From IMG/VR virus record IMGVR_UViG_2897328257_000003: DNA of 64,000 bases; one strand, 5' to 3'. The translations under genes and the position numbers were made by a program. This document shows positions 1 through 60,591 of the stretch, one piece after another. Origin of the DNA: a virus (taxonomy: Duplodnaviria > Heunggongvirae > Uroviricota > Caudoviricetes). The notes beneath the pieces were generated by a model. The model ran no database searches. It saw only the letters and a list, made by a program, of their open reading frames with translations, and had not been told where the DNA came from. Each line of letters opens with the position of its first letter. Within the stretch, counting starts at the first letter, position 1.

Positions 1-1119
1 TTAAATAACCAACTTAACCCATTCCTGACCTCGGGTATCGTTATAGCGATCGGTGGTAGCCTGGACTTTATGTCCCAGTAATGTTTTTGTATCGACACCC
101 TGTGCGCGGTACAACCGTTCTGACAGGGAGCGTTGTTCATGAAATGTTGGCGGTGTTTTTCCTGCTGGTGGAATTATTCCAGCCAGATCTCGCGCTTTGG
201 CGAAGTAATCGCTCAGGTTGTCTTTACTCATCGGTTTTGGTTGTTTCTGGTGCCTACTATGGATTAGGTATGGACTCAACATTCTGTCCCTGCATCCATC
301 AATAACTTCTTTTAACGATACCCCAATTTCATCGCATCGTAGCGTAAGAGGTAAGGCCAGACGCATTCCGGTTTTTCCTTGGGTTATATGTAGATGTCCA
401 TTCCATACATCTGAAAAACGCATGTGGCAAATGTCATCACGGCGCTGACCAGTAACAATCGCAAGAAGCATTGCGTTACGGATAAAGTGTTTTTCTGGCG
501 TTGCATTATAAATTTTTTGCCAGTCTTCCAGGGTGAGTCTGGATCTGGTCACTTTAGGGATCGGTTTACGGGTAGCCTCCGGAGGATTCCATCCAGGAGG
601 AACTTCTCCCGCATGCTGTGCTTCTTTATAAATATCAACCCATAATCCGCGATTTACTCTTGCTGTGCTGACCATGTCTTTATCCATCCACTCGTCCAGT
701 ATTAATGCAAAGTCTCTTACCTCCAGTTCTTTCAATGGGTGGTTTCCCAGGCGGGAAACCAGGTATGCAGCCATTCGCACTTTTTCTTTGTGGGTTGTAG
801 CTGCAATGTCTCCATTTTTCAGTCGCGAATCCTGTATTTTCAGATATCGATCAACCCATGCCTTTAATCTGATACCCCGACGTTTTGTTGCTGACGGACT
901 TTCATCAATTTTGCGCATGAAATATTCAGCTTCTGCTGCAGCTATTCGCTGATTGGCTGTGGAAGCGATTTTTTCTGCCTTACCTTTGTCTGTTCCGAGT
1001 CCGTGAAATTTTCCAGTCACAGGATTTTTATACTGGTAGTAAACTCTGCCAGTTCTGCGATCAAACTTTTCGTAAAGACCGGCTACGTCAGTGCTGTTTT
1101 TTCGTGGCCTCGGTGACAT
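1..1119 (-). CDS. int: Tyrosine recombinase, lambda-type prophage integrase
   Basis: 372-aa ORF; C-terminal region (..PTFHEQRSLSERLY..LLGHKVQATTDRYNDTRGQEW..) parallels the lambda Int catalytic C-terminus as recalled; followed by an xis-like gene overlapping its start. Confidence 0.9.
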   Translation of the reverse strand: MSPRPRKNSTDVAGLYEKFDRRTGRVYYQYKNPVTGKFHGLGTDKGKAEKIASTANQRIAAAEAEYFMRKIDESPSATKRRGIRLKAWVDRYLKIQDSRLKNGDIAATTHKEKVRMAAYLVSRLGNHPLKELEVRDFALILDEWMDKDMVSTARVNRGLWVDIYKEAQHAGEVPPGWNPPEATRKPIPKVTRSRLTLEDWQKIYNATPEKHFIRNAMLLAIVTGQRRDDICHMRFSDVWNGHLHITQGKTGMRLALPLTLRCDEIGVSLKEVIDGCRDRMLSPYLIHSRHQKQPKPMSKDNLSDYFAKARDLAGIIPPAGKTPPTFHEQRSLSERLYRAQGVDTKTLLGHKVQATTDRYNDTRGQEWVKLVI

Positions 1120-1418: not shown

Positions 1419-3863
1419 TTAAAAATCAGCCTGACTCGGGATCAGTTTTTGCCAGATAGCTGAAACGTATTTTGCCTGGTAACGCGCATCGTGCAGGGCA
1501 TTATGGCGCTCACCCTCAAATGTGATGACACTTCGAGCATCGAAATCCATCACCAGTCCCAGAGCAACCATCGTTCTTACATCGCGATCATTGGTGTAAC
1601 GCCATGGGCAGGGGATCCCCTGCCGTTCATATGAACGGCGTAAAATTACGTTGTCAAAGTTGGCTCCATTTCCCCAGACCTGAACAAAAAATTCACCGGA
1701 GTTTTCGTCGATAAATTCCCGTAATTGCAACAGTGCGTCATCCAACGGGATTTCATCGGTCAGAATGGCTGATTGTGCTTCCCGTGACTGTTTCAGCCAC
1801 CACTTAATGGTGTCCCGATCGATGACTCCGCCCGCGGTTTCCAGATCGATAGTTTTGCTGAATTCTGGCCCCATCTCTCCGGTTGCCGGATCAAAAAACT
1901 TACCGGCCAGAGCGTTTATTGGCGCATCAGGATTTTTGCCCATTGTTTCAAGGTCAATCATCAGATGGTGCCACAACCTGCTGGTGGATGTGCTTTCGTG
2001 ATGACCGTTCACCTTAATTAAGGGATTTGCTGTCTCGCCTGTTTCATTATTGCCATTGGCATGTTGATCGCCTTCGGTACACTCCTTGTTCGGGTATACG
2101 GCACTTTCCATTTCCTCTGGATCTTTCTCCCGGGCTTCATCCTGGCTTTCTTCGTTGAATGTTTCCTGGTATGTTGCGTCGCCCATTACCGCGCCACAGT
2201 CAGGACAGTTGCCGTCGCCGGTCTGACCGCAGGCGTTGCAGACTTTTTCCGGTTCTTGTTGCTCTTCTGGTTCAGGCTGTTTCGTTTCTGGCTCGTTTTG
2301 TAACGCATTTGGGCTGTTTTGTTCCGCTTTCTGGTCGTTTTGTTCCGATTTGTGCTGGTTCTGGTTCACAGAGTCGCGGGTTTCAATCCCCTTCACCCAT
2401 TTCGGATCATTCGGGTCGCTAATCCCTTCAACAAATTCTCCGTGAGAAGCAGCCAGTAATTTATCTGCATCGACAGGATTTTTGGGGGGAATGTTTTTCC
2501 TGGCTTCATGGAGTTCTGCACGCAGTTTCTGATATTTCGCATCAACAGAATTTATCTGTGGCTGAGCATCCATCGACTGCGTGTCCTGATTATGTTCAGT
2601 TGTATCCGGTTCCACTGCTTCAGTCGTTGCCTGTTCATCTGCCATTGCGCCAGTTGGCTGCGGTTTTTCTTCATCATCCTGTTTTCCTTCTTTTGTTACA
2701 CGCTGCGGCATTGGAGCAGAGGAGCGACCGCAGGCAATATCCACGATTTCTGGATCAGGGTTGGCATGGTCGGTTTCGGTCAGTACTTTGTTCAGATATT
2801 CGGTAACACGGTGGGGAGTAGCCTCGATACCAATTGGTGCTTCTTTCACGGACGCAACCACTATCGCGCGGGAATAATCCAGGTGACCAGGCATGGCGAT
2901 GAATTTGTCACGAAAAACAGAAAAGGGCGGCTTATTCTCTGAAACGATTTCTTCAATGCGTTTGGCGTGTGCCGGATGTGGATTGTAAATATCGATGTCC
3001 ATTGAACGGGCCAGAACGCCAGCGGCAACGTCACGTTCCACTGACGCATCATCGTGGACAAAACCTTCACCGCGATCGGTAAGAATTCCTCCGCCAGCAT
3101 TAGCGCCGGATGGCGTGCGGCTGATGCGTAAAACACGATTTCCTTTCATCCACTCTTTTGTCAGCAGACCTCGATCGGTATAGTCAGCGTCCAGGTATGC
3201 TTCGAAAAAAGCAGTCATTAACCCCAGACTGGAATTAACGGGATTAGGGAAAACTTTGTCTGTGTCGCGTACCAGTTTGTGAAGGTCGCGAATCTCCAGC
3301 GGGTCGAGCAGCTTTGTGTTGTGGGAAATAGCCAGGGCAGTAACAGCAGGCAGTTCTTCAGCTCGTGCGATATGTAATGCCTGAAGTTCTTCCCGTGAAA
3401 CGTGCGTTACCGGTTTTTCGCTGCCATGTTGCGCAAGCCAGCGAATGGGCAGTTCCTGACCGGAAATCGGCAGGAGCATATTATCCTCAATCTCAGCCAT
3501 GTCTTCGCCATTGACGTTGGTATTGTCAGAGCTGGCTGGTTTGTCCTGAACTGAGGGGGAAGGCGCTATAAATATCATTGTGATGCCATCTTCCCCGCCT
3601 TTTTCATAGCGGTTGCAGAATTCAGTATCGAACACACCTTCAGGCGGCAGGTCATTAACAATGGGCAAATTCACGCGAACAGGTTTTTTGAAATCCTCTT
3701 CGTCAAATCCAGCATCGTCCATTGCGACAACACCCCGTGATATTGCAACCGATAATTTTTTTGCTGTGCGCCAGTAAAAACCGCCTTTAATCCCAAGGCG
3801 TTTTCTGACTTTGTCATTTTTGGCTTCGTAATACAGTGCAATTTCTTCTTTATCAGTGCTCAT
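1419..3863 (-). CDS. Prophage exonuclease (814 aa) with central acidic/Gln-rich low-complexity region, Cys4 zinc-ribbon (CNACG..CPDCG) and C-terminal DEDD-type 3'-5' exonuclease-like domain; resembles proteins annotated as exodeoxyribonuclease VIII-like in E. coli prophages
   Basis: Long uninterrupted ORF in the early-left position next to xis; C-terminal motifs (..MIDLETMG.., ..HNALHDARY..) match DnaQ-like exonuclease signatures by eye. Confidence 0.7.
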
Positions 3864-3955
3864 TGATAAACCTCATAACTATTTTAAGGTTGTACGAATC
3901 CCTGCCATTGCTGGCATGCTTAATCAACGGGTATGGCGTTAATACGGCTGGCGGG

Positions 3956-4329: not shown

Positions 4330-4527
4330 TATCGCGTCCTCAACAATGAATTTTGTGATGTGGTGCCTGGTGCCTCCAGGTGACGTTAACCAGTTAACAA
4401 TTAACGCCGGANNNNNNNNNNNACGTTTGGTAGTGACGTTTCCATTATCGCGTCCTCAACAATGAATTTTGTGATGTGGTGCCTGGTGCCTCCAGGTGAC
4501 GTTAACCAGTTAACAATTAACGCCGGA
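4307..4527. repeat. Exact ~105-bp direct duplication flanking a ~10-nt N-run (approx. 4412-4422); probable contig-join artefact
   Basis: Sequence acgtttggtagtgacgtttccattatcgcg...ttaacgccgga occurs identically on both sides of the N-run. Confidence 0.6.
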
Positions 4528-6470: not shown

Positions 6471-6549
6471 AAGTTCAATGATATTTGCTATTGAATGTAC
6501 TGTCAGTTCTGTTATATTGTGTACTCAAAGTTCACATTGTGAGGGTGAT
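6471..6549. promoter_or_regulatory. Divergent promoter/operator region of the immunity switch (repressor vs cro-like gene)
   Basis: 79-bp AT-rich intergenic region between divergent start codons, with repeated TGTAC-containing half-sites (..aatgtactgtcag..tgtgtactcaa..). Confidence 0.5.
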
Positions 6550-6816
6550 ATGAGCCATACAACACTTGCAGATGTAATCAAAGCAGTTCGCGTTTCTGTT
6601 GTAGCCGATGTTTGCGGTGTCAGCCAAAGAGCAATCTACAAATGGATGAATAATGGAAAATTACCGCGCACAGAATATACAGGCGAAACAAATTACGCTG
6701 AAAAAATTGCTCTGGCATCAAACGGATTATTTTCTGCTGATGCGGTTTTGACTATTGGCAGGATTAAGCCTACAGCGAATGAATCACTGGCGGTGAACAA
6801 TGAAAATCACCCCTGA
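6550..6816 (+). CDS. Cro-position HTH protein, YdaS/DicC-like
   Basis: 88 aa from ATG 6550 preceded by GAGGG; HTH-like ..VADVCGVSQRAIYKWMNNGKLP..; divergent from the repressor. Confidence 0.7.
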   Translation: MSHTTLADVIKAVRVSVVADVCGVSQRAIYKWMNNGKLPRTEYTGETNYAEKIALASNGLFSADAVLTIGRIKPTANESLAVNNENHP

Positions 6817-7351
6817 ACAGGTTTGTGAGGCTCTGGATGCCTGGGTATGCCGACCAGGAATGACACAGGAGCAGGCGACGATATTAATCACGGAAGCATT
6901 CTGGGCTCTGAAAGAACGCCCGAACATCGATGTTCAACGCGTCACGTTTAATGATGGCGAGGTTGATCAACGGGCGCTGGGCGTTAATCGAGTGAAGATA
7001 TTCGAACGCTGGAAGGCTATCGACACCAGGGATAAGCGTGAAAAATTCACGGCGCTGATTCCGGCAATTATGGAGGCTATCCGGGTAAGTGATTTCAGGT
7101 TGTATTGTGAAATTACTGACGGAAAAAGCATTACGTACATGATCGCCGGGTTAAACAAAGAGTATGGCGATGTGGTGGAGTCCGGGCTGCTTTTTGCGGA
7201 TCCAGTTGTTGTGGAACGTGAGACTGATGAGCTTATAGAAAAAGCCATTGCTTTCAAGCGTGCGTATCGTCAGCAATACCAACATTACTTTGCAGATAAA
7301 CAAATATCTGTCTGGGGTTCGTATGAGTATCGATGCACTACGATGGGCTAA
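6800..7351 (+). CDS. YdaT-like protein (Rac ydaT family as recalled; proposed CII-analogue/toxic protein)
   Basis: 183 aa overlapping the end of the ydaS-like gene; segment ..DKREKFTALIPAIMEAIRVSDFRLYCEITD.. resembles YdaT. Confidence 0.6.
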   Translation: MKITPEQVCEALDAWVCRPGMTQEQATILITEAFWALKERPNIDVQRVTFNDGEVDQRALGVNRVKIFERWKAIDTRDKREKFTALIPAIMEAIRVSDFRLYCEITDGKSITYMIAGLNKEYGDVVESGLLFADPVVVERETDELIEKAIAFKRAYRQQYQHYFADKQISVWGSYEYRCTTMG

Positions 7352-8360
7352 AAAGGTGAAAACCGGCAGTTCATCCAGTAAGTCAGTATTGACCTGGCTT
7401 GCTGATATGTGCGGTGCCGATTTGTGCGCATACCCGTCTATATCTGCACTGGCAGAAGTAACGGAACTGAACAAAAAGACTGTGCAGGACAGTTTACGAC
7501 ACCTGATGGAGATTGGGTTAATTGTTGATACTGGTGAGAGAAAAGGCAGAACAAAGCAAATTGTGGTGTACCGACTTATCGGTGTAGAAGAAAGTGTTGC
7601 CGAGCCTGAATACACCCAAAAACGGGAGTCTTTAAAGGTGGGTAAAATTGGTACTGTTAATAAAAATAGTACCGAAAATGGTTATGTTTCAGCACAAAAC
7701 AGACCCAAAAACGGAACTCTTAGCTGCATGGAAAATAACCAAAGACACCCAAATTTTCCATCAAAGACACCCAAAAACGGATCACGGAACCCAAAGGAAC
7801 CCAAAGATCTAAACCCCACACATAACGCACGCGAGAGTGCTCCGACCAGTGAGCAGGAAGTTTTGTCGTTACAGGCAGCGCCCCCTGTATTCTTGGATGG
7901 CCTGAGCGAACCCATCGGGAAATTTTCGATGACTACTGTCTGGCAGCCGTCGCTGGATTTTCGACAACGGGCAGTAGTGTGGGGTATGGCTCTGCCTGAG
8001 CCGGAATTTACACCTGCAGAGCTTGCCGCATTCCGGGATTACTGGATGGCGGAGGGGAAGGTTTTCACGCAGGTTCAGTGGGAGCAGAAATTTGCCCGTC
8101 ACGTGCAGCACGTCAGGGCACAGGTAAAACCAGTCAGCAAGGGGGTAAGCCATGCAGCATCAGGTGGCACGGCATCACGGGCAGTTCAGGAAATCCGGGC
8201 AGCACGCGAACAGTGGGAACGTGAAAACGGATTTATCAGCAACGGAAACGGCCTGGAAGCTGTGGGAGCTTATGGGGGAGGTGTATTCGAACCGCTGGAC
8301 TCAGAAGAATGGGGCCGCACCTTCGAAGCTCTGGATTGCCCAGATTGGTGCGATGACTGA
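7323..8360 (+). CDS. Replication initiation protein: N-terminal winged-helix DNA-binding domain, low-complexity linker, C-terminal DnaT-like domain
   Basis: C-terminal ..GKFSMTTVWQPSLDFRQRAVVWGMALPEPEFTPAELAAFRDYWMAEGKVFTQVQWEQKFAR.. closely parallels E. coli DnaT as recalled; iteron-like repeats inside the linker-coding DNA. Confidence 0.7.
   Translation: MSIDALRWAKKVKTGSSSSKSVLTWLADMCGADLCAYPSISALAEVTELNKKTVQDSLRHLMEIGLIVDTGERKGRTKQIVVYRLIGVEESVAEPEYTQKRESLKVGKIGTVNKNSTENGYVSAQNRPKNGTLSCMENNQRHPNFPSKTPKNGSRNPKEPKDLNPTHNARESAPTSEQEVLSLQAAPPVFLDGLSEPIGKFSMTTVWQPSLDFRQRAVVWGMALPEPEFTPAELAAFRDYWMAEGKVFTQVQWEQKFARHVQHVRAQVKPVSKGVSHAASGGTASRAVQEIRAAREQWERENGFISNGNGLEAVGAYGGGVFEPLDSEEWGRTFEALDCPDWCDD
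7650..7810. repeat. Putative prophage replication origin: AT-rich palindrome followed by iteron-like direct repeats inside the replication gene
   Basis: GGTACTgttaataaaaatAGTACC palindrome; repeats gacccaaaaacggaac (7702-7717) and cacccaaaaacggatc (7768-7783), agacaccca x2, ggaacccaaag x2; analogous to lambda ori within O. Confidence 0.45.
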
Positions 8361-8814
8361 ACAGCAAATCCGTCTGGTCTGCCGTCAGTGCATGGACCGC
8401 TGCCGGGCGGGTGAAACGTGGCCCCCGGACCTGGCTGAGTTTGTTGCGCTGATTTCGGAGAGTGGGGCAAATCCATTTGGTCTTACGGTGGATGCCGTGA
8501 TGGAAGAGTACCGGCGCTGGCGCAATGAATCCTGGCGATACGACGGGAGTGATAAATACCCGTGGCCACAGCCTGTGCTGTACCACATCTGCCTCGAAAT
8601 GCGTACCAGAGGGATTGAGCGCCAGATGACGCAGGGTGAGTTAAAACGACTTGCGGAACGGCAACTGACGAAATGGGCAAAGCATGTTGGTAACGGGATG
8701 AGTGTTCCGCCAGTGCGACGACAACTGGAAGGGGCGAAACACCCGAAAGGGCCAACGCCAATTGAACGGCTGAAACAGGAATACGAACGCCGGAAGGCTG
8801 CTGGTTTTATTTGA
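8152..8814 (+). CDS. Lambda P-like replication protein (DnaB helicase loader family)
   Basis: 220 aa; strong RBS AAGGGGG before ATG 8152; ..TWPPDLAEFVAL.. and ..YPWPQPVLYHICLEMRTRGIERQMTQGELKRLAERQL.. parallel lambda P; overlaps the previous ORF by ~209 nt in another frame. Confidence 0.7.
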   Translation: MQHQVARHHGQFRKSGQHANSGNVKTDLSATETAWKLWELMGEVYSNRWTQKNGAAPSKLWIAQIGAMTEQQIRLVCRQCMDRCRAGETWPPDLAEFVALISESGANPFGLTVDAVMEEYRRWRNESWRYDGSDKYPWPQPVLYHICLEMRTRGIERQMTQGELKRLAERQLTKWAKHVGNGMSVPPVRRQLEGAKHPKGPTPIERLKQEYERRKAAGFI

Positions 8815-8847
8815 ATCTGGGAAACGATTTTGTCGGAGGAAATTTTA

Positions 8848-9564
8848 ATGGAAACCGTATTTGACGCACTGAAAGCACTGAAAAGAGCCTCTTCACAGGT
8901 AGTGGCGGCCCGCCTTGGAATCAGCCGTGAAGATGCGGTCAACGAACTGTGGAAACTGAAGCGCCGTGGTGAAGCGGATAACAAGGGGTCGATGTGGTGG
9001 CTGACTCAGGCAGGTGAAAGTGAACCAGTGTCACCGGTACCGAAAGTGACAGCGCAAATGCTGACTGAGGCGATTGAACAACATGGCCCACAAACGGCGG
9101 ATGAGCTGGCACTTATGTTCGGGATTACCTCCCGCCGGGCGAATTCATCGCTGGCCATGGCAATCAGCAAAGGGCGTCTGATTCGCGTAAATCAGGGCGG
9201 TAAATTTCGTTACTGCATACCGGGCGCTGATTTACCGGCAGAGCCGGAAGCTGCATCCGTAGCGGAAACCGATGGTAAAGCCTTTCCTCAGCCAGCAGGT
9301 GTTGCGTTACCAGTCCAGGAAACGACGACACAGGAAGAAATGAAAACAGAAATCGTGGAAGACATTGTGAAGTTACAGCCATCGGTCACCGAAACGAAAG
9401 CAGATAACCTGATTCTACCATCGCTGCATGTGGCTAACCGCGAGCTGCGCCGGGCAAAAGGTCAGGTTCAGAAGTGGGAGCGAGTCTGCGCCGCGCTGCG
9501 GGAGCTGAACAAGTGCCGGGATATTCTCTGGGATATTACCGCCACCAGAGAACAGCAGCGGTGA
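8848..9564 (+). CDS. Hypothetical prophage protein with two winged-helix-like segments (DUF1627-like as recalled)
   Basis: ATG 8848 preceded by GGAGGA at good spacing; ORF track places an upstream TTG at 8830. Confidence 0.55.
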
Positions 9565-9878
9565 GTGGGTGGAAGACGTGGTGCCGGGCTGAAATTCTGA
9601 TACTCCGGCAGTGCGCGGGAACAATGAAGGTAAAAAGCATTGGCGCACTTATCGGACGAACTGAAGCGGCAGTGAGAACGAAGGCACGGGAGTTGGGCAT
9701 CAGCATGATGTTACGTGGTGATTTTCACCCGTCGGCAAAATATTCTCAGCGTGATATTGAGCTGGCGCGGCAACTGCATCAGAGAGGCATGCAAAGAAGG
9801 GAAATTGCCAGAAAATTAGGCATGCCGCTGCGCATAGTGAATAACTACGTTTATTTCGACAGGAGGGTTCAGGCGTGA
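9561..9878 (+). CDS. Small DNA-binding protein with GcrA-like N-terminal HTH and a second sigma-70 region-4-like HTH
   Basis: GTG start overlapping the upstream stop (GTGA); pattern W..E.L....G.....I...+G.T.AV..K...LG resembles the GcrA N-terminus. Confidence 0.45.
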
Positions 9879-10180
9879 GGGTGAGCATTTATATCGCCGG
9901 TCCAATGACGGGATATGAAAATTTCAACCGCGAGGCGTTTCACAGGGCGGAAGAAGCACTGAAACGGGAAGGGCATACCGTTTTAAACCCGGCAGTACTT
10001 CCGGACGGGCTGACTCAGCCGCAGTACATGGATATTTGCATGGCAATGATTCGTTGTGTGGATGCGGTTTATATGCTGAAAGGCTGGCAGCGATCGGCAG
10101 GCGCTAAGGCAGAACTGGCACTGGCGGAGAAACTGGGACATGCGGTTATTTTCCAGGAGGCAACCAGTGAGCGAAATTAA
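9875..10180 (+). CDS. DUF4406-like protein (nucleoside 2-deoxyribosyltransferase-like fold family)
   Basis: 101 aa; GTG start after AGGAGGG with overlapped upstream stop; N-terminal ..VSIYIAGPMTGYENFNREAF.. is the characteristic motif as recalled. Confidence 0.65.
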   Translation: MRVSIYIAGPMTGYENFNREAFHRAEEALKREGHTVLNPAVLPDGLTQPQYMDICMAMIRCVDAVYMLKGWQRSAGAKAELALAEKLGHAVIFQEATSERN

Positions 10181-10329
10181 TTACCAGGAGCTACGGCAGG
10201 TGAAAGAGAAAGCATAATCCAGATCTGAATAATTAAAATCAGCACTGTAAATAAAATTTAATCCTTAACCGGAGGGATTTCTGCACCCTCAGAACATCAG
10301 GAGACCGCCAGAAAGGGCGGTAATGAAAA

Positions 10330-10698
10330 ATGACTGAATTAACAAAAGAGCAATTAATCAAAGAAGCCAAATTAAAAATAGCGGTTGCGAAATGTTACCC
10401 TAATTCAGAGATGGCCAGGGTAGAGGGAGAGCTATTCAAAATTGCACTGGCATCGCTGGAGGCGGTTCCGGTGGCATGGCTGCATTCAGACAATGGCCTG
10501 GGTATTCCAGCAATAACCAGGAGTAAAAACGTTGCTGATAGTTGGTTATCAAAGGGCTGGTATGTTCAGCCGTTATATGTAGCCCAACCTGTACCGGTGG
10601 TGCCGGATGCTCGTCCATCTTTAAATAATGGCATTGTCGGATTTGATGAAGGCTGGAATGCCTGCCGGGATGCCATGCTTAATGGAGATAAATCATGA
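10330..10698 (+). CDS. Hypothetical protein (122 aa), first gene of a coupled three-gene module; C-terminal ..EGWNACRDAML.. motif
   Basis: ORF after a 150-bp AT-rich intergenic region with promoter-like sequence and a hairpin just before the start; stop overlaps the next start (ATGA). Confidence 0.6.
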   Translation: MTELTKEQLIKEAKLKIAVAKCYPNSEMARVEGELFKIALASLEAVPVAWLHSDNGLGIPAITRSKNVADSWLSKGWYVQPLYVAQPVPVVPDARPSLNNGIVGFDEGWNACRDAMLNGDKS

Positions 10699-11396
10699 TT
10701 AATCGTATCAAACTGGAGCACATCCTCGAATATGCCGGGCAGCAGAGGCATATTGGTCAGCATTGTAAAATTCCACCAGGAGATATGGTTGAAATCATGG
10801 AGATTGCCATGCGCAAGGCTGGCAACCCTCCGGTAACTCCGGGGCGTTTGCCTGGCGGTTTCACCATTGAGGAGGCGAAGGAGTTACATGAAGACCTGGT
10901 GCGCAGCCACATAAGCAAGGCTTTAAGTGGCGAAAAGATGAAGAAGAAGGATCTCGATGCTGATTTGCGCTGGATCCATGGGGTTATAGTCCAGGCCGCC
11001 TGGTTTGTAAAAGCATCACTGGAGCAGAATGTGCTAACGGGTAACTCTCAGGTAATCCCTGATGACGGTCGCGAACAGTTTGAAACACTTATCAGGTTCC
11101 ATGCAGATGATAAAAACCATGAAACATTATTGCTTCGTGCTAACGAAGGGATGAATTACCGGGATCCAAATGTGGATTTGGCATGGATATTCTGGAAATC
11201 CAGTCGAGAGCACATATTGCCTGGAAAAAGCGACAATAATCCAGCATCAGGCGATCAGGTAAGTGAATTAACAATGTGGGTGAAGCGGTTATCTCATTCC
11301 TTAAAAAGCGTTAATAAATCAAGCAAACTACCGGATAAAGCGATGGACTACCTGAAGCGAAACGGACTGATAAACGAGGAGAATATTTTACGATGA
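10695..11396 (+). CDS. Hypothetical protein (233 aa), second gene of the coupled module
   Basis: ATGA overlaps with both neighbours; no recognised domain. Confidence 0.6.
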   Translation: MINRIKLEHILEYAGQQRHIGQHCKIPPGDMVEIMEIAMRKAGNPPVTPGRLPGGFTIEEAKELHEDLVRSHISKALSGEKMKKKDLDADLRWIHGVIVQAAWFVKASLEQNVLTGNSQVIPDDGREQFETLIRFHADDKNHETLLLRANEGMNYRDPNVDLAWIFWKSSREHILPGKSDNNPASGDQVSELTMWVKRLSHSLKSVNKSSKLPDKAMDYLKRNGLINEENILR

Positions 11397-52086: not shown

Positions 52087-52215
52087 GAACTGCGTTGATT
52101 ATGTCATTATTGTGAAGAGACCTTACCTACACAGATAAAGAATGCCACGGAAAAGTTAATTCCGGAAGTGACGGAAATCTCATTTTTCGTGCATCCTGTT
52201 GATATGGATGATTTT

Positions 52216-52545
52216 TCAGATTTCCGGAAGTCCGTATTTTGCCCGGGCGCGGTTGCATGCTTCATTCGCGATGCCATTTTCTCCGGACATTGCGAATTCC
52301 CGGCATGTGGACGGACGGTTTTTGTAAACAGAGCAATATGCGTTTTCACCCGGAGTTCCCGCCAGAGCGACACATCGGGGATTTTTCTGACTTGTGCCGC
52401 GCATACAGCGATGAAAGGGGGATATTTGCTCAGTGAGACTGACCGGAACCTTTCCGCCAGCATCGTCAGCTTCTGCCCAGTAAAAAGAGACGCGGAAAAA
52501 TGCACAACAGGCACCACACGTCATGCATGGATTCGGATTGTTCAT
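52216..52545 (-). CDS. YkgJ-like CxxCxxCC zinc/iron-chelating domain protein (UPF0153-like as recalled)
   Basis: 109 aa; N-terminal [17 protein letters not shown].. motif; sits between the N-run and the potB 3' end, i.e. in apparent prophage-end DNA. Confidence 0.65.
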
Positions 52546-52634
52546 TTTTATACTATTTGTTGTTTTTTCAGCGATCAGATCAAAGGGCGCTGAAAAAAAA
52601 CATTCTCCAAAATTAGATTATAACTATTTGATTT

Positions 52635-52668
52635 TATGGATAGAGGCATGCTTTTTACGCAAAAGTAA
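52635..52668. terminator. Perfect 14-bp-stem hairpin just downstream of potB; candidate bidirectional terminator or palindromic binding site
   Basis: ggcatgctttttac-gcaaaa-gtaaaaagcatgcc. Confidence 0.4.
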
Positions 52669-52710
52669 AAAGCATGCCAAATTTGCTATTAACTCTTTGA
52701 ATATTCAGCA

Positions 52711-53574
52711 CTAATCATCTATTTCGGTTGCCTTCTTATTCAGCAGACGAGAAGCGCGCCAGTAAACCAGCAACATCAGGCCCATTACGATAGTCAGCGT
52801 AATGCTGGTGGCTGCACCAAACGGCCAGTCACGAATATTGAGGAACTGGACCTTGATGACGTTACCGATCAGCAGGTTTTTCGCACCGCCCATCAGGTCG
52901 GATACATAGAACAGGCCCATCGCTGGCAGCATCACCAGCAGACATCCGGCAATAATTCCCGGCATCGTCAGTGGAATAATGATACGGATAAAAGTCTGTA
53001 ACTTGCTGGCACCGAGATCGCGCGCCGCCTCAAGCAACGGCTTATCCAGTTTTTCGATACTGGAGTACAGCGGCATCACCATAAACGGTAGCAGAATGTA
53101 AACCAGACCGATAATCACCGCACTGGGCGTGAACATGATACGAATTGGTGTGTCGATAACGCCCAGCCAGAGCAAAAACTCGTTGAGATAGCCTTTGGTG
53201 CTGAGGAAAATTTTCAGCCCGTAGATGCGAATCAGTGAGTTGGTCCAGAAGGGAACAATCAGCAGAAACAGCAGCAGCGGACGCACCTTGTGTGGTAGCT
53301 TCGCTAGAAACCAGGCAAACGGGTAGCCCAGCACCAGGCAGGCGAGGGTGGCGATCAGCGCCATATTCAGCGAGTGCAATAGCACTTCAAAATAGAGCGG
53401 ATCGAGCAGACGCGTGTAGTTATCCAGCGTAAAGACCATTTTGACGAAACTGGCGTCGTCGCGGGTCAAAAAGCTGGTGCCAATGATCATCAGGTTGGGC
53501 AGAAAGACAAACAACACAAGCCAACCGACAATAGTGACAATCACTACATTCTGGAACTTACTTGTGTTCTTCAT
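52711..53574 (-). CDS. potB: Spermidine/putrescine ABC transporter permease PotB, C-terminus apparently altered
   Basis: 287 aa, multi-TM permease, overlaps the potA stop as in the pot operon; ends ..[11 protein letters not shown] and is ~12 aa longer than the 275 aa I recall for K-12 PotB; no potC downstream. Confidence 0.85.
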
Positions 53575-54694
53575 CAGCCAGTACGACCTCCCAGCTTTCT
53601 ACCCAATTAATGGCCATTTTTTGGTCGAGAGAGTGGTCAAAGTCAGGGTCGTCTTCATTGAAGAATTCGCTGACCATCACCATCTTGCCATTTTCCAGTT
53701 CAACAACCGACTCCAGCGTCATGCCTTTGTAGTTACGCTCACGAACGTAACCAATCAGCCCTTCAGCGTGGTTGTCGTCGTTAATCTCTTCAACACGTAA
53801 GTCTTCCGGGCGCAGCAGAACATGCAGTTTTTGCCCCGGTTCAACGGCGAAGTTAACGTAGATATTACATTCGCGGCCTTCAACGTTGGCGCGTACGCGC
53901 TGCTCGTCTAGACGTTCGATGACAGTGGCGTTAAACATATTGATTTCGCCAATGAAGCCGGCAACAAACAGGTTTTTCGGCTCTTCGTAAATTTCGCGCG
54001 GTGTACCATCTTGCTCAATACGACCCTCGCGCATCACCACAATCCTGTCTGACATGGTGAGCGCTTCTTCCTGATCGTGAGTGACAAAGACGAAGGTAAT
54101 ACCAAGCTTACGCTGTAACGCTTTCAGCTCGTTCTGCATTTGCTTACGCAGTTTGTAATCCAGCGCTGAGAGCGACTCATCCAGCAACAACAGACGAGGC
54201 TTGTTAACCACCGCGCGAGCAATGGCGACGCGTTGCTGTTGACCACCAGAGAGCTGATGCGGTTTACGTTGAGCGAAGGTTTCCAGTTGCACCATCCGCA
54301 GGGCTTCCATCACGCGGGGCGTAATTTCAGCAGCGGGGGTTTTTTGCATGCGCAACCCAAAGGCCACATTTTCGAACACGGTCATGTGGGGGAAAAGTGC
54401 GTAGCTTTGGAAAACAGTGTTCACATAGCGGTTTTCCGCCGGAACGTGGGTGATGTCCTCGTTATCCAGCATGATGCGTCCGGAATCAACAGTTTCCAGA
54501 CCTGCAATCAGGCGAAGAACGGTTGTTTTACCGCAGCCAGAAGGGCCAAGCAGCGTGAGGAACTCGCCATTGTTGATAGTCAGATCCAGCTGGGGAATGA
54601 CCTCTTTACCATCAAAGCATTTGCGAATTCCCGCCAATTGCACCAGCGGTGAAAGCGAACTCGGTTGTTTATTCAATTTTTTACTCTGTCCCAT
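53558..54694 (-). CDS. potA: Spermidine/putrescine ABC transporter ATP-binding protein PotA
   Basis: 378 aa; Walker [13 protein letters not shown] signature LSGGQQQR, Walker B LLLLDE; divergent from pepT. Confidence 0.95.
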
Positions 54695-54943
54695 GTAAAC
54701 GCAACGGATGGCTTACCGATGCGGGGTTTGTGGTTAACCACCTTGGTGACTCTTAATGAGGGCGGTAATTCTACGGCAAACCGCTTGAATCGCCAATCTT
54801 TGTTGTGAATTACTGGCTTAGCTTTATATTCATTAAGGTAATGCTGATAAATATTCCCGCTTGCAGGGGTAAAAGTGACCTGACGCAATATTTGTCTTTT
54901 CTTGCTTCTTAATAATGTTGTCACAAAAAGTGAGGGTGACTAC

Positions 54944-56173
54944 ATGGATAAACTACTTGAGCGATTTTTGAACTACGTGTCTCTGGATACCCAATCAAAA
55001 GCAGGGGTGAGACAGGTTCCCAGCACGGAAGGCCAATGGAAGTTATTGCATCTGCTGAAAGAGCAGCTCGAAGAGATGGGGCTTATCAATGTGACCTTAA
55101 GTGAGAAGGGCACTTTGATGGCGACGTTACCGGCTAACGTCCCTGGCGATATCCCGGCGATTGGCTTTATTTCTCATGTGGATACCTCACCGGATTGCAG
55201 CGGCAAAAATGTGAATCCGCAAATTGTTGAAAACTATCGCGGTGGCGATATTGCGCTGGGTATCGGCGATGAAGTTTTATCACCGGTTATGTTCCCGGTG
55301 CTGCATCAGCTACTGGGTCAGACGCTGATTACTACCGATGGTAAAACCTTGTTAGGTGCCGATGACAAAGCCGGTATTGCAGAAATCATGACCGCGCTGG
55401 CGGTATTGCAACAGAAAAACATTCCGCATGGTGATATTCGCGTCGCCTTTACCCCGGATGAAGAAGTGGGCAAAGGGGCGAAACATTTTGATGTTGATGC
55501 CTTCGATGCCCGCTGGGCTTACACTGTTGACGGTGGTGGCGTAGGTGAACTGGAGTTTGAAAACTTCAACGCCGCATCGGTCAATATCAAAATTGTCGGT
55601 AACAATGTTCATCCGGGCACGGCGAAAGGAGTGATGGTAAATGCGCTGTCGCTGGCGGCACGTATTCATGCGGAAGTTCCGGCGGATGAAAGCCCGGAAA
55701 TGACAGAAGGCTATGAAGGTTTCTATCACCTGGCGAGCATGAAAGGCACCGTTGACCGAGCCGATATGCACTACATCATCCGTGATTTCGACCGTAAACA
55801 GTTTGAAGCGCGTAAACGTAAAATGATGGAGATCGCCAAAAAAGTGGGCAAAGGGTTACATCCTGATTGCTACATTGAACTGGTGATTGAAGACAGTTAC
55901 TACAATATGCGCGAGAAAGTGGTTGAGCATCCGCATATTATCGATATCGCCCAGCAGGCGATGCGTGACTGCGATATTGAACCGGAACTGAAACCGATCC
56001 GCGGCGGTACCGACGGCGCGCAGTTGTCGTTTATGGGATTACCGTGCCCGAACCTGTTCACTGGCGGTTACAACTATCATGGTAAGCATGAGTTTGTGAC
56101 TCTGGAAGGTATGGAAAAAGCGGTGCAGGTGATTGTCCGTATTGCCGAGTTAACGGCGCAACGGAAGTCGTGA
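54944..56173 (+). CDS. pepT: Peptidase T (tripeptide aminopeptidase)
   Basis: Begins [19 protein letters not shown] (internal Met of the track ORF 54902..56173); M20-family metal-binding motifs; conserved position next to potA. Confidence 0.95.
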
Positions 56174-56318
56174 TTGCCCGATGCGTATGTGGACTGCCAA
56201 TTACCGGGATGAAACCGTTATATTGATACTGGTCAACATACTTATCGTGCCTACAGGCGTTCAGTGCATGTAGGCACGATAAGGCGCAATCAGCGCCGCA
56301 TCCGGCTTAAATCCAAAC

Positions 56319-57440
56319 TTACCCTTCGAAGAACCAATACCCGCTATTGACCAGCGCCGCGAGCATCGCGAGGAATGACGGATCTTCCAGCGCATCGCCA
56401 AAATTCTCCGCAGTCAGCGCAATGTTGCTGGCGAGTGCATCCAGTGCCGGACGGTGCGGGGAATCGATCTTCTCACCATTGGCATACACGTCGTCGCCAA
56501 TGCGCAATACGCGCAGACCACCCAGGCGCACCAGCACATCACCTTGTTTCAGCGCATCGTAGATTTCATCTGGCTGATAAGGCGGTTCCGGCGGCGCGAT
56601 ATCCAGTTCATGACGTGACTGGGATATAAACTCGCCAAACCATTGCTTAAAGTGTTCCGGCTGGTTGATCAATTCGAGCATCATCTCACGCAGTTTATCC
56701 ATCTCTTGCGGCAGAACATCCGCAGGATGAGCGCGAGGTGGAACATCAGGATCGCTGTAGTAGTTGCCGCCCAGTTCACGTTGCAGCACATAATCGGCAA
56801 ATCCACTAATCAGTTCCCGCGTATTTGGCGCGCGAAAGCCCACGGAATAGTTCATCGCATTTTCCAGCGCGTAGCCTTCATGCGGGAATCCTGGCGGAAT
56901 ATAAAGAATATCACCAGGCTCCAGCTCTTCATCGATGATGGCTTCGAACGGATCGACCTGTAACAGATCCGGATGTGGGCAGTGCTGTTTCATTTGCAGC
57001 TTTTCGCCCACTCGCCAGCGACGACGTCCGGTACCCTGAATGATAAACACGTCGTACTGATCGAGATGCGGGCCGACGCCGCCGCCAGGTACAGAAAAAG
57101 AGATCATCAGATCATCAATACGCCAGTCCGGTAGTTCACGGAACGGTCGCATCAGCGCGGCGGTCGGCTCATGCCAGTGGTTTACTGCCTGTACCAGTAA
57201 TGACCAGTTGGTTTCACCGAGATGATCGTAGCTTTCGAACGGGCCGTGGCTGACCTGCCATTTGCCATCCTGGTGACTGACCAGTCGACTGTCAACTTCG
57301 CTTTCCATCGCCAGACCCGCCAACTCGTCTGGAGAGATCGGGTCAATAAAATTATTAAAGCCGCGTTTTAACACCACCGGGCGTTTCTGCCAGTGACGTT
57401 CAAGAAAATCGGGCCAGTTAAGAGTGAGTTGGTATTCCAT
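56319..57440 (-). CDS. roxA: Ribosomal protein uL16 arginine hydroxylase RoxA (YcfD), cupin/JmjC-like
   Basis: 373 aa from the second ATG (MEYQLTLNWPDFLERHW..); conserved neighbour of pepT in E. coli. Confidence 0.9.
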   Translation of the reverse strand: MEYQLTLNWPDFLERHWQKRPVVLKRGFNNFIDPISPDELAGLAMESEVDSRLVSHQDGKWQVSHGPFESYDHLGETNWSLLVQAVNHWHEPTAALMRPFRELPDWRIDDLMISFSVPGGGVGPHLDQYDVFIIQGTGRRRWRVGEKLQMKQHCPHPDLLQVDPFEAIIDEELEPGDILYIPPGFPHEGYALENAMNYSVGFRAPNTRELISGFADYVLQRELGGNYYSDPDVPPRAHPADVLPQEMDKLREMMLELINQPEHFKQWFGEFISQSRHELDIAPPEPPYQPDEIYDALKQGDVLVRLGGLRVLRIGDDVYANGEKIDSPHRPALDALASNIALTAENFGDALEDPSFLAMLAALVNSGYWFFEG

Positions 57441-57491
57441 GTTAAGCATCCACAGGCTGGTATCTGCAACCGATTATAACGGATGCTTAAC
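57441..57491 (-). promoter_or_regulatory. roxA 5' region: 11-bp inverted repeat with 29-nt spacer containing a TATAAT on the roxA strand
   Basis: gttaagcatcc ... ggatgcttaac; right arm repeats the ATGCTTAAC that precedes the roxA start; spacer contains ccgTTATAATcgg on the minus strand. Confidence 0.3.
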
Positions 57492-57667
57492 GTAATGCGT
57501 GAAGTATGGACATATTTTATCAATTAGTGTTTTTTGCCGTTTCATAATGTTTCAGGTTGTGCGTTATGTTTTTGATTATAAACAGATTTGTGATTTTTCT
57601 TGTTCCAGCTTGTTTCACGTTGTAGCCCTTTGTGCAACGATCGGTGTAGTTAATGGTGTAGTTAATT

Positions 57668-58918: not shown

Positions 58919-59144
58919 TTTTTTTCGTGTTTTTTCAGTATGCGCATACTGGATAAGTGCACAGATACAACGTGAAACAATGTGCAACAACGTGACANNN
59001 NNNNNNNNATACTGGCGGGAACACATGAAAACGTAACCACGCTACCAGTAACCAGAATAAAATAATTTTTTTCGTGTTTTTTCAGTATGCGCATACTGGA
59101 TAAGTGCACAGATACAACGTGAAACAATGTGCAACAACGTGACA
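58862..59144. repeat. Exact ~136-bp direct duplication flanking a ~10-nt N-run (approx. 58998-59008); probable contig-join artefact
   Basis: atactggcgggaacacatgaaaacg...caacaacgtgaca occurs identically before and after the N-run; first copy includes the integrase 3' end. Confidence 0.6.
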
Positions 59145-59968: not shown

Positions 59969-60591
59969 NNNNNNNNNNNNNNNNNNNNNNNNNNNNNNNN
60001 NNNNNNNNNNNNNNNNNNNNNNNNNNNNNNNNNNNNNNNNNNNNNNNNNNNNNNNNNNNNNNNNNNNNNNNNNNNNNNNNNNNNNNNNNNNNNNNNNNNN
60101 NNNNNNNNNNNNNNNNNNNNNNNNNNNNNNNNNNNNNNNNNNNNNNNNNNNNNNNNNNNNNNNNNNNNNNNNNNNNNNNNNNNNNNNNNNNNNNNNNNNN
60201 NNNNNNNNNNNNNNNNNNNNNNNNNNNNNNNNNNNNNNNNNNNNNNNNNNNNNNNNNNNNNNNNNNNNNNNNNNNNNNNNNNNNNNNNNNNNNNNNNNNN
60301 NNNNNNNNNNNNNNNNNNNNNNNNNNNNNNNNNNNNNNNNNNNNNNNNNNNNNNNNNNNNNNNNNNNNNNNNNNNNNNNNNNNNNNNNNNNNNNNNNNNN
60401 NNNNNNNNNNNNNNNNNNNNNNNNNNNNNNNNNNNNNNNNNNNNNNNNNNNNNNNNNNNNNNNNNNNNNNNNNNNNNNNNNNNNNNNNNNNNNNNNNNNN
60501 NNNNNNNNNNNNNNNNNNNNNNNNNNNNNNNNNNNNNNNNNNNNNNNNNNNNNNNNNNNNNNNNNNNNNNNNNNNNNNNNNNNNNNNNNNN
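59969..60591. other. Unresolved sequence: 623-nt run of N inside the satellite element
   Basis: Contiguous n characters. Confidence 1.

What the first reader, a model, noticed from the sequence alone, without database searches (positions are those of the whole stretch)
9875..10180. DUF4406-like (nucleoside 2-deoxyribosyltransferase-like) gene at the end of the replication operon
The last gene of the replication-linked operon encodes a 101-aa protein whose N-terminal IYIAGPMTG.. motif matches the nucleoside 2-deoxyribosyltransferase-like fold as I recall it. A phage-encoded enzyme of this family next to replication genes could act on nucleotide pools or nucleotide-derived signals, which would bear on phage-host or phage-defence interactions. 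The function is unknown to me.
Basis: partly seen in the sequence, partly recalled or inferred. Interest (0 to 1): 0.35.

Follow-up and report, generated by a model that had tools for sequence, protein, structure and literature searches.

The report
Small prophage nucleotide-cleaving enzyme (DUF4406)
This is a real, very common prophage gene for a 101-residue enzyme of the deoxyribosyltransferase fold that most likely cuts or swaps the base on DNA-building-block nucleotides (dNMPs); databases already list the family, but nobody has tested its function.

Summary
Window 9875-10180 (+) is a 101-aa GTG-start ORF with a good Shine-Dalgarno site. It is under purifying selection and is identical to RefSeq WP_001376361.1, "DUF4406 domain-containing protein". 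It matches Pfam DUF4406 over its full length (E=1.3e-36). A confident AlphaFold model (pLDDT 89.5) hits only nucleoside 2-deoxyribosyltransferases, CMP N-glycosidases (MilB/BcmB) and DNPH1 in the PDB.

The nucleophile motif S74-x-G-x-x-x-E80 and Tyr6 are essentially invariant. Ser74 sits where DNPH1 has its phosphate-binding Ser98 and where true NDTs have the 5'-OH-binding Asp.

Relatives are fused to a dNMP kinase in at least 120 protein clusters, and to a dNTP diphosphohydrolase domain. Both fusions point to dNMP substrates.

Two departures from the textbook enzymes stand out. The protein lacks the C-terminal third of NDT/DNPH1. In this enterobacterial subfamily the canonical general-acid Asp is Cys55, accompanied by a subfamily-specific Asp53/Arg19 pair.

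The gene is not the end of an operon. It lies in the nin-like early region between replication gene P and antiterminator Q, and no terminator follows it. It occurs in 22% of complete E. coli genomes. I found no link to defence or anti-defence. Verdict: a correct, annotation-level finding in a known but uncharacterised family; modest interest.

The parts
9875..10180 (+). DUF4406 gene (101 aa plus stop): a minimal NDT-superfamily enzyme
   Evidence: ORF and translation; Pfam PF14359 E=1.3e-36; identical to WP_001376361.1; AF2 and Foldseek; dN/dS 0.11-0.21
9861..9866 (+). Shine-Dalgarno AGGAGG, 8 nt before the GTG start
   Evidence: read directly from the sequence
9890..9892 (+). codon for Tyr6 (IYIAGP motif), equivalent to DNPH1 Y24 and LlNDT Y7
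   Evidence: Y in 40/40 viral cluster representatives, Y or F in 67/68; aligned to YIAGP of T. brucei NDT and to YFCGS of DNPH1
10031..10039 (+). codons for Asp53-Ile54-Cys55. Cys55 occupies the position of the canonical general-acid Asp/Asn; Asp53 is specific to this subfamily
   Evidence: register from the HMM alignment to TbNDT and the DNPH1 fragment alignment; position 55 is D in 14 divergent clusters and C in the query's subfamily, and it covaries with R19/D53
10094..10114 (+). codons for Ser74-Ala-Gly76-Ala-Lys-Ala-Glu80: the nucleophile motif [S/D]xGxxxE
   Evidence: S74 68/68 and E80 67/68; same spacing as DNPH1 S98...E104 and LlNDT D92...E98 (sequences verified); GAxAE aligned to GTAFE of TbNDT
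9597..9878 (+). upstream, translationally coupled HTH DNA-binding protein gene (PGAP start; the mechanical ORF starts at 9474)
6478..9564 (+). preceding early-right genes: cro/YdaS-like HTH, YdaT-family, DnaT-domain O-like initiator, lambda P-like loader, DUF1627
   Evidence: Pfam and RefSeq annotation of identical DNA
10181..10329 (+). 150-bp spacer with no terminator-like site; same-strand early genes resume at 10330

Best explanation
The gene encodes a stand-alone, minimal member of the N-(deoxy)ribosyltransferase superfamily. It has four strands and three helices. It is transcribed with the prophage's early replication genes. It most likely binds a 2'-deoxynucleoside 5'-monophosphate and cleaves the N-glycosidic bond through a covalent deoxyribosyl-5-phosphate ester on Glu80. 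Tyr6 would position the nucleophile, and Ser74 plus the flexible G9-R19 loop would hold the 5'-phosphate. The intermediate is then resolved either by water, giving free base plus deoxyribose-5-phosphate (DNPH1-like), or by another base (phosphodeoxyribosyl transfer, DmtZ-like). The biological role would be editing or rebalancing of the dNMP pool while phage DNA is replicated. Shown here: the gene, the family, the fold, conservation of the nucleophile motif, the Ser-for-Asp signature, and the fusion partners. Inferred: the substrate class, the covalent mechanism, hydrolase versus transferase outcome, and the physiological role.
For: Family and fold: Pfam DUF4406 E=1.3e-36; PHROG 355. The AF2 model has pLDDT 89.5 and pTM 0.83. 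The top 38 Foldseek PDB hits are all NDT, MilB/BcmB CMP N-glycosidase, DNPH1, the DUF1937 structure 1t1j or the unnamed NDT-fold entry 7m5h. A 68-sequence family profile hits T. brucei NDT 2a0k at E=1.7e-4, aligning YIAGP to YIAGP and GAxAE to GTAFE.

Catalytic residues: Y6, S74, G76 and E80 are invariant or nearly so across 47, 68 and 39-cluster samples. The S74-x-G-x-x-x-E80 spacing is identical to DNPH1 S98...E104 and LlNDT D92...E98; both reference sequences were verified against the PDB. In DNPH1, E104 is the covalent nucleophile and S98 coordinates the phosphate (PMC10603095). Phage DmtZ likewise lacks the Asp/Asn that hold the 5'-OH in NDTs and is dNMP-specific (PMC12884076).

Fusions: DUF4406 joined to the dNMP kinase domain PF21448 is found in three viral clusters and in all 120 best database clusters, at 59-94% identity over the full length. 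DUF4406 joined to PF18909 is found in L150 and in BFVD entries. PF18909 is a dNTP-to-dNMP phosphohydrolase domain, shown biochemically in PMC12884076. This second fusion mirrors the characterised DmtZ-DutZ fusion.

Context: neighbours in 39 non-redundant viral clusters are replication and recombination genes, with scattered dNMP kinase, ThyX, dUTPase and dATP/dGTP pyrophosphohydrolase genes. Purifying selection: dN/dS 0.11-0.21.
Against: No member of DUF4406 has been assayed or solved. Literature searches for DUF4406 and PF14359 found no functional study, and there is no sequence relative in the PDB. At the position of the canonical general acid (DNPH1 D80, LlNDT D72) this protein has Cys55. 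The fusion proteins all belong to the Asp55 subfamily, which is only about 35-40% identical to the query, so their substrate need not transfer to this protein. The protein ends after strand 4. It therefore lacks the segment that in DNPH1 supplies the second phosphate ligand S128' from the partner subunit, and that in LlNDT supplies N123 and the C-terminal Tyr157. The oligomeric state and completeness of the active site are unknown. This lambdoid prophage has no other nucleotide-metabolism gene that would suggest a pathway.
Confidence: 0.5

Rival explanations
1. It is a classical nucleoside 2-deoxyribosyltransferase (EC 2.4.2.6), as PHROGs and many phage annotations label it. It would exchange bases between unphosphorylated deoxynucleosides for salvage.
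For: PHROG 355 and many GenBank phage records use this name. The best structural and profile hits are trypanosomatid and bacterial NDTs. Some phage PF05014 NDTs are active purine transferases (bioRxiv 10.1101/2025.10.22.683976).
Against: The PF05014 score of 17.8 bits is below the gathering cutoff of 28.8. The Asp that binds the 5'-OH in NDT (LlNDT D92) is an invariant Ser here, as in the dNMP hydrolase DNPH1. The C-terminal segment carrying N123 and the C-terminal Tyr is absent. The fusion partners handle phosphorylated nucleotides.
Confidence: 0.15
2. It is a conflict enzyme rather than a metabolic one. It would destroy or modify a nucleotide-derived immune signal or NAD-type molecule, or counteract a nucleotide-depleting defence, to help the phage escape host immunity.
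For: NDT-like domains serve as effectors in retron Ec86, where they deplete adenine derivatives. The fold is distantly similar to TIR domains (Foldseek E about 0.01). The gene is an accessory, mosaic early gene present in only 22% of E. coli genomes.
Against: No PADLOC family match. No defence or anti-defence genes are enriched among 300 neighbours of 39 clusters. The conserved fusions are to housekeeping-type dNMP and dNTP enzymes. No literature support was found.
Confidence: 0.1
3. It is specialised for modified nucleotides made by phage or host DNA methyltransferases. Candidates are N6-methyl-dAMP and 5-methyl-dCMP released from degraded DNA, or the SAH by-product. It would act as a pool sanitiser in the way DNPH1 does for hmdUMP.
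For: In N15 the homologue gp57 overlaps a cytosine-methylase gene. Immediate neighbours include four different MTase families, some overlapping the gene. The characterised relatives DNPH1 and MilB prefer 5-modified pyrimidine nucleotides. The window prophage carries a DNA methyltransferase about 6 kb downstream.
Against: The enrichment is weak and not significant: 5/77 MTase domains at positions +-1, against 2/73 at +-2 and at least 3/150 at +-3 to 5; Fisher p=0.08-0.09. MTases are common in the same early regions anyway.
Confidence: 0.12
4. It is catalytically weak or inactive and works as a nucleotide-binding or regulatory subunit, for example modulating a host or phage enzyme, because the canonical acid and the C-terminal complementing segment are missing.
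For: Cys55 replaces the canonical Asp, and the protein is only 101 aa with four strands.
Against: Glu80, Ser74 and Tyr6 are kept almost without exception over very large divergence: 17,250 representative clusters match the profile. Active relatives tolerate Asn at the middle position, as in DmtZ N77 and TbNDT. A compensating D53/R19 pair covaries with Cys55.
Confidence: 0.1

Closest known systems
DNPH1 / Rcl (2'-deoxynucleoside 5'-phosphate N-hydrolase; PDB 8qhr, 4fyh)
   Same: Same fold (Foldseek TM about 0.70). Tyr on strand 1. Identical S-x-G-x-x-x-E spacing, with Ser as phosphate ligand and Glu as covalent nucleophile. The predicted substrate class, dNMP, is the same.
   Different: No significant sequence similarity. 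Cys55 sits where DNPH1 has D80. The protein lacks strand 5 and the helical extension that gives S128' to the partner active site, and it lacks the E55/H56 element. It is 101 aa, against about 145 aa for the DNPH1 core.
Phage DmtZ (Gordonia phage Ghobes / Arthrobacter phage Wayne; dAMP hydrolase and deoxyribose-5-phosphate transferase, PMC12884076)
   Same: A phage-encoded NDT-superfamily enzyme acting on a dNMP. It is found fused to a dNTP diphosphatase, paralleling the DUF4406-PF18909 and DUF4406-dNMP-kinase fusions. Its middle triad residue is not Asp (N77).
   Different: It is not a DUF4406 member: hmmsearch and hhalign give no significant match, and the authors needed a hand-made HMM. It is about 145-160 aa with five strands and is tied to 2-aminoadenine (Z) genomes, which this lambdoid prophage is not.
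Nucleoside 2-deoxyribosyltransferases (L. leichmannii 1f8x; T. brucei 2a0k; Pfam PF05014)
   Same: Best structural and profile matches. The YIAGP motif is identical to T. brucei NDT. The Glu nucleophile motif is shared.
   Different: Below the PF05014 threshold. Ser replaces the 5'-OH-binding Asp. The C-terminal third, with N123 and the C-terminal Tyr, is missing.
MilB / BcmB / BlsM (CMP and hydroxymethyl-CMP N-glycosidases)
   Same: Fold (TM 0.63-0.78). They hydrolyse nucleoside 5'-monophosphates through the equivalent Glu. There are weak profile hits to 4jen and 5vto.
   Different: They are ribonucleotide-specific enzymes of antibiotic biosynthesis and are about 50 aa longer. No sequence-level membership.
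DUF1937 (PDB 1t1j, P. aeruginosa hypothetical protein)
   Same: Another short, uncharacterised NDT-fold family. Weak Pfam hit E=1.3e-4 and Foldseek hit TM 0.71.
   Different: A different Pfam family; its function is also unknown.

Membership tests
Pfam DUF4406 (PF14359) | Full-length match to the family HMM above the curated gathering score | tested here: met
   125.3 bits against a cutoff of 22, E=1.3e-36, residues 4-93 on profile positions 2-91 of 91
Pfam DUF4406 (PF14359) | Family signature motifs: YIAGPM(T/S)G, LNPxxLP, SxGAxxE | tested here: met
   All are present. G9, F22, P39, P43 and S74 are invariant, and E80, G76 and A77 are at least 95% conserved in 68 diverse representatives
N-(deoxy)ribosyltransferase-like superfamily (fold level) | Flavodoxin/Rossmann-like alpha/beta fold superimposable on NDT, DNPH1 and MilB | tested here: met
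   AF2 pLDDT 89.5. Foldseek PDB hits 2a0k, 8pqt, 6evs, 4jem, 1t1j and 9da6 with probability 1.00 and TM 0.70-0.75 normalised to the query. Only four of the five strands are present
N-(deoxy)ribosyltransferase-like superfamily (catalytic triad) | Glu nucleophile at the N-terminus of helix 3 within [S/D]xGxxxE | tested here: met
   E80: 47/47, 67/68 and 39/40; aligned to the Glu of GTAFE in TbNDT
N-(deoxy)ribosyltransferase-like superfamily (catalytic triad) | Tyr at the end of strand 1 | tested here: met
   Y6: Y/F in 67/68 and Y in 40/40; aligned to DNPH1 Y24
N-(deoxy)ribosyltransferase-like superfamily (catalytic triad) | Asp (or Asn) general acid on helix 2, eight residues before the Asp that precedes strand 3 | tested here: not met
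   That position is Cys55 in this protein and its subfamily. It is Asp in 14 of 39 viral clusters. Asp53 and Arg19 covary with Cys55. The register comes from alignments, not from a 3-D superposition
Classical nucleoside 2-deoxyribosyltransferase (PF05014, EC 2.4.2.6) | Match to PF05014 above the gathering score | tested here: not met
   17.8 bits against a cutoff of 28.8
Classical nucleoside 2-deoxyribosyltransferase (PF05014, EC 2.4.2.6) | Asp binding the 5'-OH of the deoxynucleoside (LlNDT D92), and the C-terminal segment with N123 and the C-terminal Tyr from the neighbouring subunit | tested here: not met
   Ser74 occupies the D92 position. The protein ends after strand 4
Classical nucleoside 2-deoxyribosyltransferase (PF05014, EC 2.4.2.6) | Base exchange between deoxynucleosides in vitro | not testable with these tools
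   Needs an enzyme assay
DNPH1/Rcl-type dNMP N-glycosidase | Ser in place of the NDT Asp as 5'-phosphate ligand (human S98) | tested here: met
   S74 in 68/68, with the same spacing to the Glu. The role of S98 is taken from PMC10603095
DNPH1/Rcl-type dNMP N-glycosidase | Second phosphate ligand from the partner subunit (S128') on a helical extension after strand 5; homodimer | tested here: not met
   The segment is absent from the 101-aa protein. The oligomeric state could not be tested
DNPH1/Rcl-type dNMP N-glycosidase | Hydrolysis of dNMP to base plus deoxyribose-5-phosphate | not testable with these tools
   Supported only indirectly, by fusions to a dNMP kinase and a dNTP diphosphohydrolase domain
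Known anti-phage defence components (PADLOC) | Match to any defence-system protein model | tested here: not met
   0 families at E<=0.01

The most novel reading that the evidence does not exclude
The enterobacterial DUF4406 subfamily is a distinct minimal class of nucleotide N-glycosidase whose active site has been rebuilt: Tyr6 / Cys55 / Glu80 with a migrated Asp53-Arg19 pair in place of the canonical Asp. Under this reading it acts not on bulk dNMPs but on a specific non-canonical target. Candidates are methylated or damaged dNMPs or a nucleotide-derived immune signal. That would make it a widespread prophage tool in phage-host conflict, carried by about one in five E. coli genomes.
Probability: 0.1. 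Interest if true: 0.65.

Novelty: already known. Interest (0 to 1): 0.3.

Why it matters
The gene family is very large: 17,250 representative clusters match the profile, there are homologues in 507 phage records, and copies sit in 22% of complete E. coli genomes. Yet it has no tested function. If it is a dNMP N-glycosidase or phosphodeoxyribosyl transferase, temperate phages routinely carry a step that edits the deoxynucleotide pool during replication. That would parallel the human pool sanitiser DNPH1 and the recently described DmtZ of Z-genome phages. For this particular window the finding adds nothing beyond existing annotation. Its value is as a well-defined, cheap biochemical target: a 101-aa soluble protein with clear mutants to make.

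Tried and rejected
- **PDB sequence searches.** The single protein and a 47-sequence profile found no true relative. Only the more diverse 68-sequence profile reached TbNDT.
- **hhalign against single sequences.** The close-relative alignment against DNPH1 or LlNDT gave meaningless short alignments because Neff was about 2.
- **Apparent fusions in Arthrobacter phages.** Genes labelled 'MazG-like pyrophosphatase' or 'deoxycytidylate deaminase' are single-domain 122-aa DUF4406 proteins. The labels are annotation noise, not fusions.
- **Long representatives.** A Pfam scan of the 49 longest proteins among the 150 best representatives showed no recurrent second domain. The real fusions appeared only in more divergent viral loci.
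- **Linkage to DNA methyltransferases.** It looked striking in a first pass. Against local controls it did not hold up: 5/77 versus 2/73 and at least 3/150, Fisher p about 0.08-0.09. I kept it only as a minor rival.
- **Curated libraries.** No PADLOC or NCBIfam match.
- **Literature.** 'DUF4406' gave three incidental mentions, 'PF14359' gave none, and no functional study turned up.
- **Failed scans.** Two viral-contig scans with single divergent queries returned nothing.
- **DmtZ.** It was tested as a possible characterised member of the family and is not one.
- **Right-hand flank.** I tried to map the window's right flank onto strain S19-141 and it does not match. It is the potB-pepT region.

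Full report
**1. The observation**

Window 9875-10180 (+) is an open reading frame of 101 codons starting with GTG. It translates to [101 protein letters not shown].

An AGGAGG Shine-Dalgarno sequence lies at 9861-9866. The GTG overlaps the TGA of the upstream ORF (GTGA), which is typical of translational coupling.

The same DNA is 100% identical in several Shiga-toxin-type E. coli chromosomes. There PGAP annotates exactly this ORF as WP_001376361.1, "DUF4406 domain-containing protein". It sits in a lambdoid prophage inserted next to ompW.

Against 11 same-length homologues from viral contigs, dN/dS is 0.11-0.21. The ORF is therefore a real gene under purifying selection.

**2. Family and fold**

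- Pfam gives a full-length match to DUF4406 (PF14359; E=1.3e-36, 125 bits against a cutoff of 22).
- It gives only sub-threshold hits to DUF1937 and to the classical NDT family PF05014 (17.8 bits against 28.8).
- PHROGs places the protein in phrog_355, "nucleoside 2-deoxyribosyltransferase".
- NCBIfam and PADLOC have nothing.

An AlphaFold2 model built on 47 homologues is confident (pLDDT 89.5, pTM 0.83). It has the order strand-helix-strand-helix-strand-helix-strand.

Foldseek against the PDB returns, as its top 38 hits, only the following, with TM-scores of 0.63-0.78 normalised to the query:
- nucleoside 2-deoxyribosyltransferases;
- the CMP/hmCMP N-glycosidases MilB and BcmB;
- the dNMP N-hydrolase DNPH1;
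- the DUF1937 structure 1t1j;
- 7m5h, an unnamed conserved protein from Enterococcus faecalis, which PMC12884076 lists among 2-deoxyribosyltransferase structures.

No PDB chain is a sequence relative of the single protein or of its close-relative profile. A profile of 68 diverse family representatives does reach T. brucei NDT (2a0k) at E=1.7e-4.

**3. Catalytic residues**

I verified my recalled sequences of human DNPH1 and L. leichmannii NDT against the PDB.

- *Nucleophile motif.* The motif S74-A-G76-A-K-A-E80 has the same spacing as DNPH1 S98-L-G-V-G-Y-E104 and LlNDT D92-V-G-L-G-M-E98. The profile alignment to T. brucei NDT puts GAxAE on GTAFE and YIAGP on YIAGP.
- *Conservation.* Across three samples (47 close relatives, 68 representatives at 50% identity or less, 39 non-redundant viral clusters), Y6, G9, S74, G76, A77 and E80 are invariant or nearly so.
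- *Roles in DNPH1.* E104 forms the covalent deoxyribosyl-phosphate intermediate. Y24/D80/E104 is the triad. S98, together with S128' from the partner subunit, holds the phosphate (PMC10603095).
- *Ser signature.* In NDTs the residue at the S98 position is an Asp that binds the 5'-OH. The dNMP-specific phage enzyme DmtZ also lacks that Asp/Asn (PMC12884076). The invariant Ser74 is thus the signature of a 5'-phosphorylated substrate.

Two departures from the textbook enzymes matter.

(i) *The general acid.* In LlNDT, DNPH1 and TbNDT it lies eight residues before the Asp that precedes strand 3. In this protein that register gives Cys55. A low-confidence hhalign alignment to DmtZ also puts Cys55 on DmtZ N77. 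In 14 of 39 viral clusters position 55 is Asp, giving the canonical Tyr-Asp-Glu triad. In the query's subfamily it is Cys, and this covaries with Arg19 and Asp53, whereas the Asp55 group has Phe/Tyr19 and Arg/Lys53.

(ii) *Truncation.* The protein stops after strand 4. It therefore lacks the segment that supplies S128' in DNPH1, and N123 and the C-terminal Tyr in NDT.

**4. Evidence on substrate from domain fusions**

- Apparent "MazG" and "dCMP deaminase" homologues in Arthrobacter phages are single-domain proteins with inconsistent labels.
- The longest proteins among the 150 best representatives show no recurrent extra domain.
- More divergent viral loci contain true single-ORF fusions. DUF4406 (residues 1-106) is joined to the dNMP kinase domain PF21448 in three clusters. 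DUF4406 is joined to PF18909, the dATP/dGTP diphosphohydrolase N-domain, in another.
- A database search with one kinase fusion found 1,314 hits. All 120 best clusters, at 59-94% identity over the full length, carry both domains.
- BFVD independently shows the DUF4406 fold fused to PF18909-type proteins.
- PF18909 (DUF5664) has been shown to convert dNTPs to dNMPs. The NDT-like DmtZ, fused to a dUTPase-like dNTP diphosphatase, hydrolyses dAMP and transfers deoxyribose-5-phosphate to another base (PMC12884076).

These fusions place DUF4406 next to enzymes that make or consume dNMPs. DmtZ itself is not a DUF4406 member.

**5. Genomic context**

In the window the gene follows, on the same strand and tightly packed:
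- a cro/YdaS-like HTH gene;
- a YdaT-family gene;
- a DnaT-domain O-like initiator;
- a lambda-P-like loader;
- DUF1627;
- a small HTH protein.

No terminator-like site follows. After 150 bp, further same-strand early genes run on to hokD, DUF968, RusA and Q in the identical genome. The gene therefore sits in the nin-like accessory region, not at the end of an operon.

Across 39 non-redundant viral clusters, the 300 nearest neighbours are mostly replication and recombination genes: DNA polymerase A, DnaB, primases, RecT, SSB, RusA. There are occasional dNMP kinase, ThyX, dUTPase, dATP/dGTP pyrophosphohydrolase and UDG genes.

A first impression of linkage to DNA methyltransferases came from N15 gp57-gp58 and several overlapping MTase genes. 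It did not survive a local control: 5/77 at +-1, against 2/73 and at least 3/150 further out, Fisher p about 0.08-0.09.

**6. Distribution**

- 17,250 representative clusters (at 50% identity) match the family profile at E<=0.001.
- 507 GenBank phage records encode a homologue, including N15 gp57 and PY54.
- The gene, at 80% nucleotide identity or more, occurs in 1,221 of 5,426 complete E. coli genomes in 1-4 copies. Every listed hit is annotated "DUF4406 domain-containing protein".
- No paper in the searchable library reports a function for DUF4406.

**7. Conclusion**

The most likely mechanism is N-glycosidic cleavage of a dNMP through a Glu80-linked intermediate. The 5'-phosphate would be held by Ser74 and the G9-R19 loop. 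The enzyme is expressed early with the replication genes. Whether water or a base resolves the intermediate is open, as is the preferred dNMP. I put this at about 0.5.

The rivals are each at about 0.10-0.15:
- a classical nucleoside transferase;
- a sanitiser of methylated nucleotides;
- an anti-defence enzyme;
- a non-catalytic nucleotide binder.

The finding is a correct reading of a known, uncharacterised family. It is ordinary as an annotation and moderately interesting as a biochemical target.

Noticed in passing
window 11539-52025; also 4412-4422, 58998-59008, 59969-60591: Runs of N (40,487 bases, 11, 11 and 623 bases). Most of the prophage, from just after the early region to its far end, is masked and unreadable in this window.
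   Followed up: partly
window 1-1119 versus 52100-58900: The left end begins at the ompW/attL junction with the prophage integrase. The readable right part is potB-potA-pepT-roxA plus another tyrosine integrase. The strain with identical early-region DNA (S19-141) instead has trp-yciEFG-ompW' beyond the prophage, and that region does not match the window. The window's genome therefore has a different arrangement, possibly a rearrangement between prophages.
   Followed up: partly
viral loci L156, L167, L147 (about 3001-3894) and L150 (2839-3762): Conserved single-ORF fusions of DUF4406 with a dNMP kinase domain (PF21448, about 297 aa; at least 120 protein clusters) and with the dATP/dGTP diphosphohydrolase N-domain (PF18909). 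I found no description of these in the papers searched.
   Followed up: yes
residues 19, 53 and 55 of the DUF4406 protein (window 9929-9931, 10031-10039) and homologues in L010-L169: Three-way covariation in the family. Members have either Phe/Tyr19 + Arg/Lys53 + Asp55, or Arg19 + Asp53 + Cys55. This suggests the acidic residue and its basic partner moved within the active site.
   Followed up: partly
L004 (phage N15) 3501-4809; L087 3003-4300; L085; the L070 group: DNA methyltransferase genes of four different families lie directly beside DUF4406 genes, sometimes overlapping them. The enrichment over local background is weak (p about 0.08-0.09).
   Followed up: yes
window 10330-10698 and 10695-11396 (+): The two ORFs downstream match only PHROGs of unknown function (phrog_5117, phrog_924). 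RefSeq annotates the first as a 'valyl-tRNA synthetase' pseudogene fragment, which looks like a mis-annotation of an Ead/Ea22-like phage gene.
   Followed up: no
window 8830-9564 (+): The DUF1627 protein between P and the HTH gene has weak sub-threshold similarity to AlkZ-like DNA glycosylase and AbiEi-type winged-helix domains. Its function is unknown.
   Followed up: no
L002 (Arthrobacter phage Tweety19 gp28) and L003 (Kepler gp54): Single-domain DUF4406 proteins are deposited as 'MazG-like pyrophosphatase' and 'deoxycytidylate deaminase'. The labelling of the same family in actinophage records is inconsistent.
   Followed up: yes
L171 6191-12028 (strain S19-141, attR side of the ompW prophage): An S6-family (SPATE-type) autotransporter peptidase and a YadA-like adhesin sit just inside the prophage's far end. 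They look like likely virulence cargo. This region is masked in the window.
   Followed up: no
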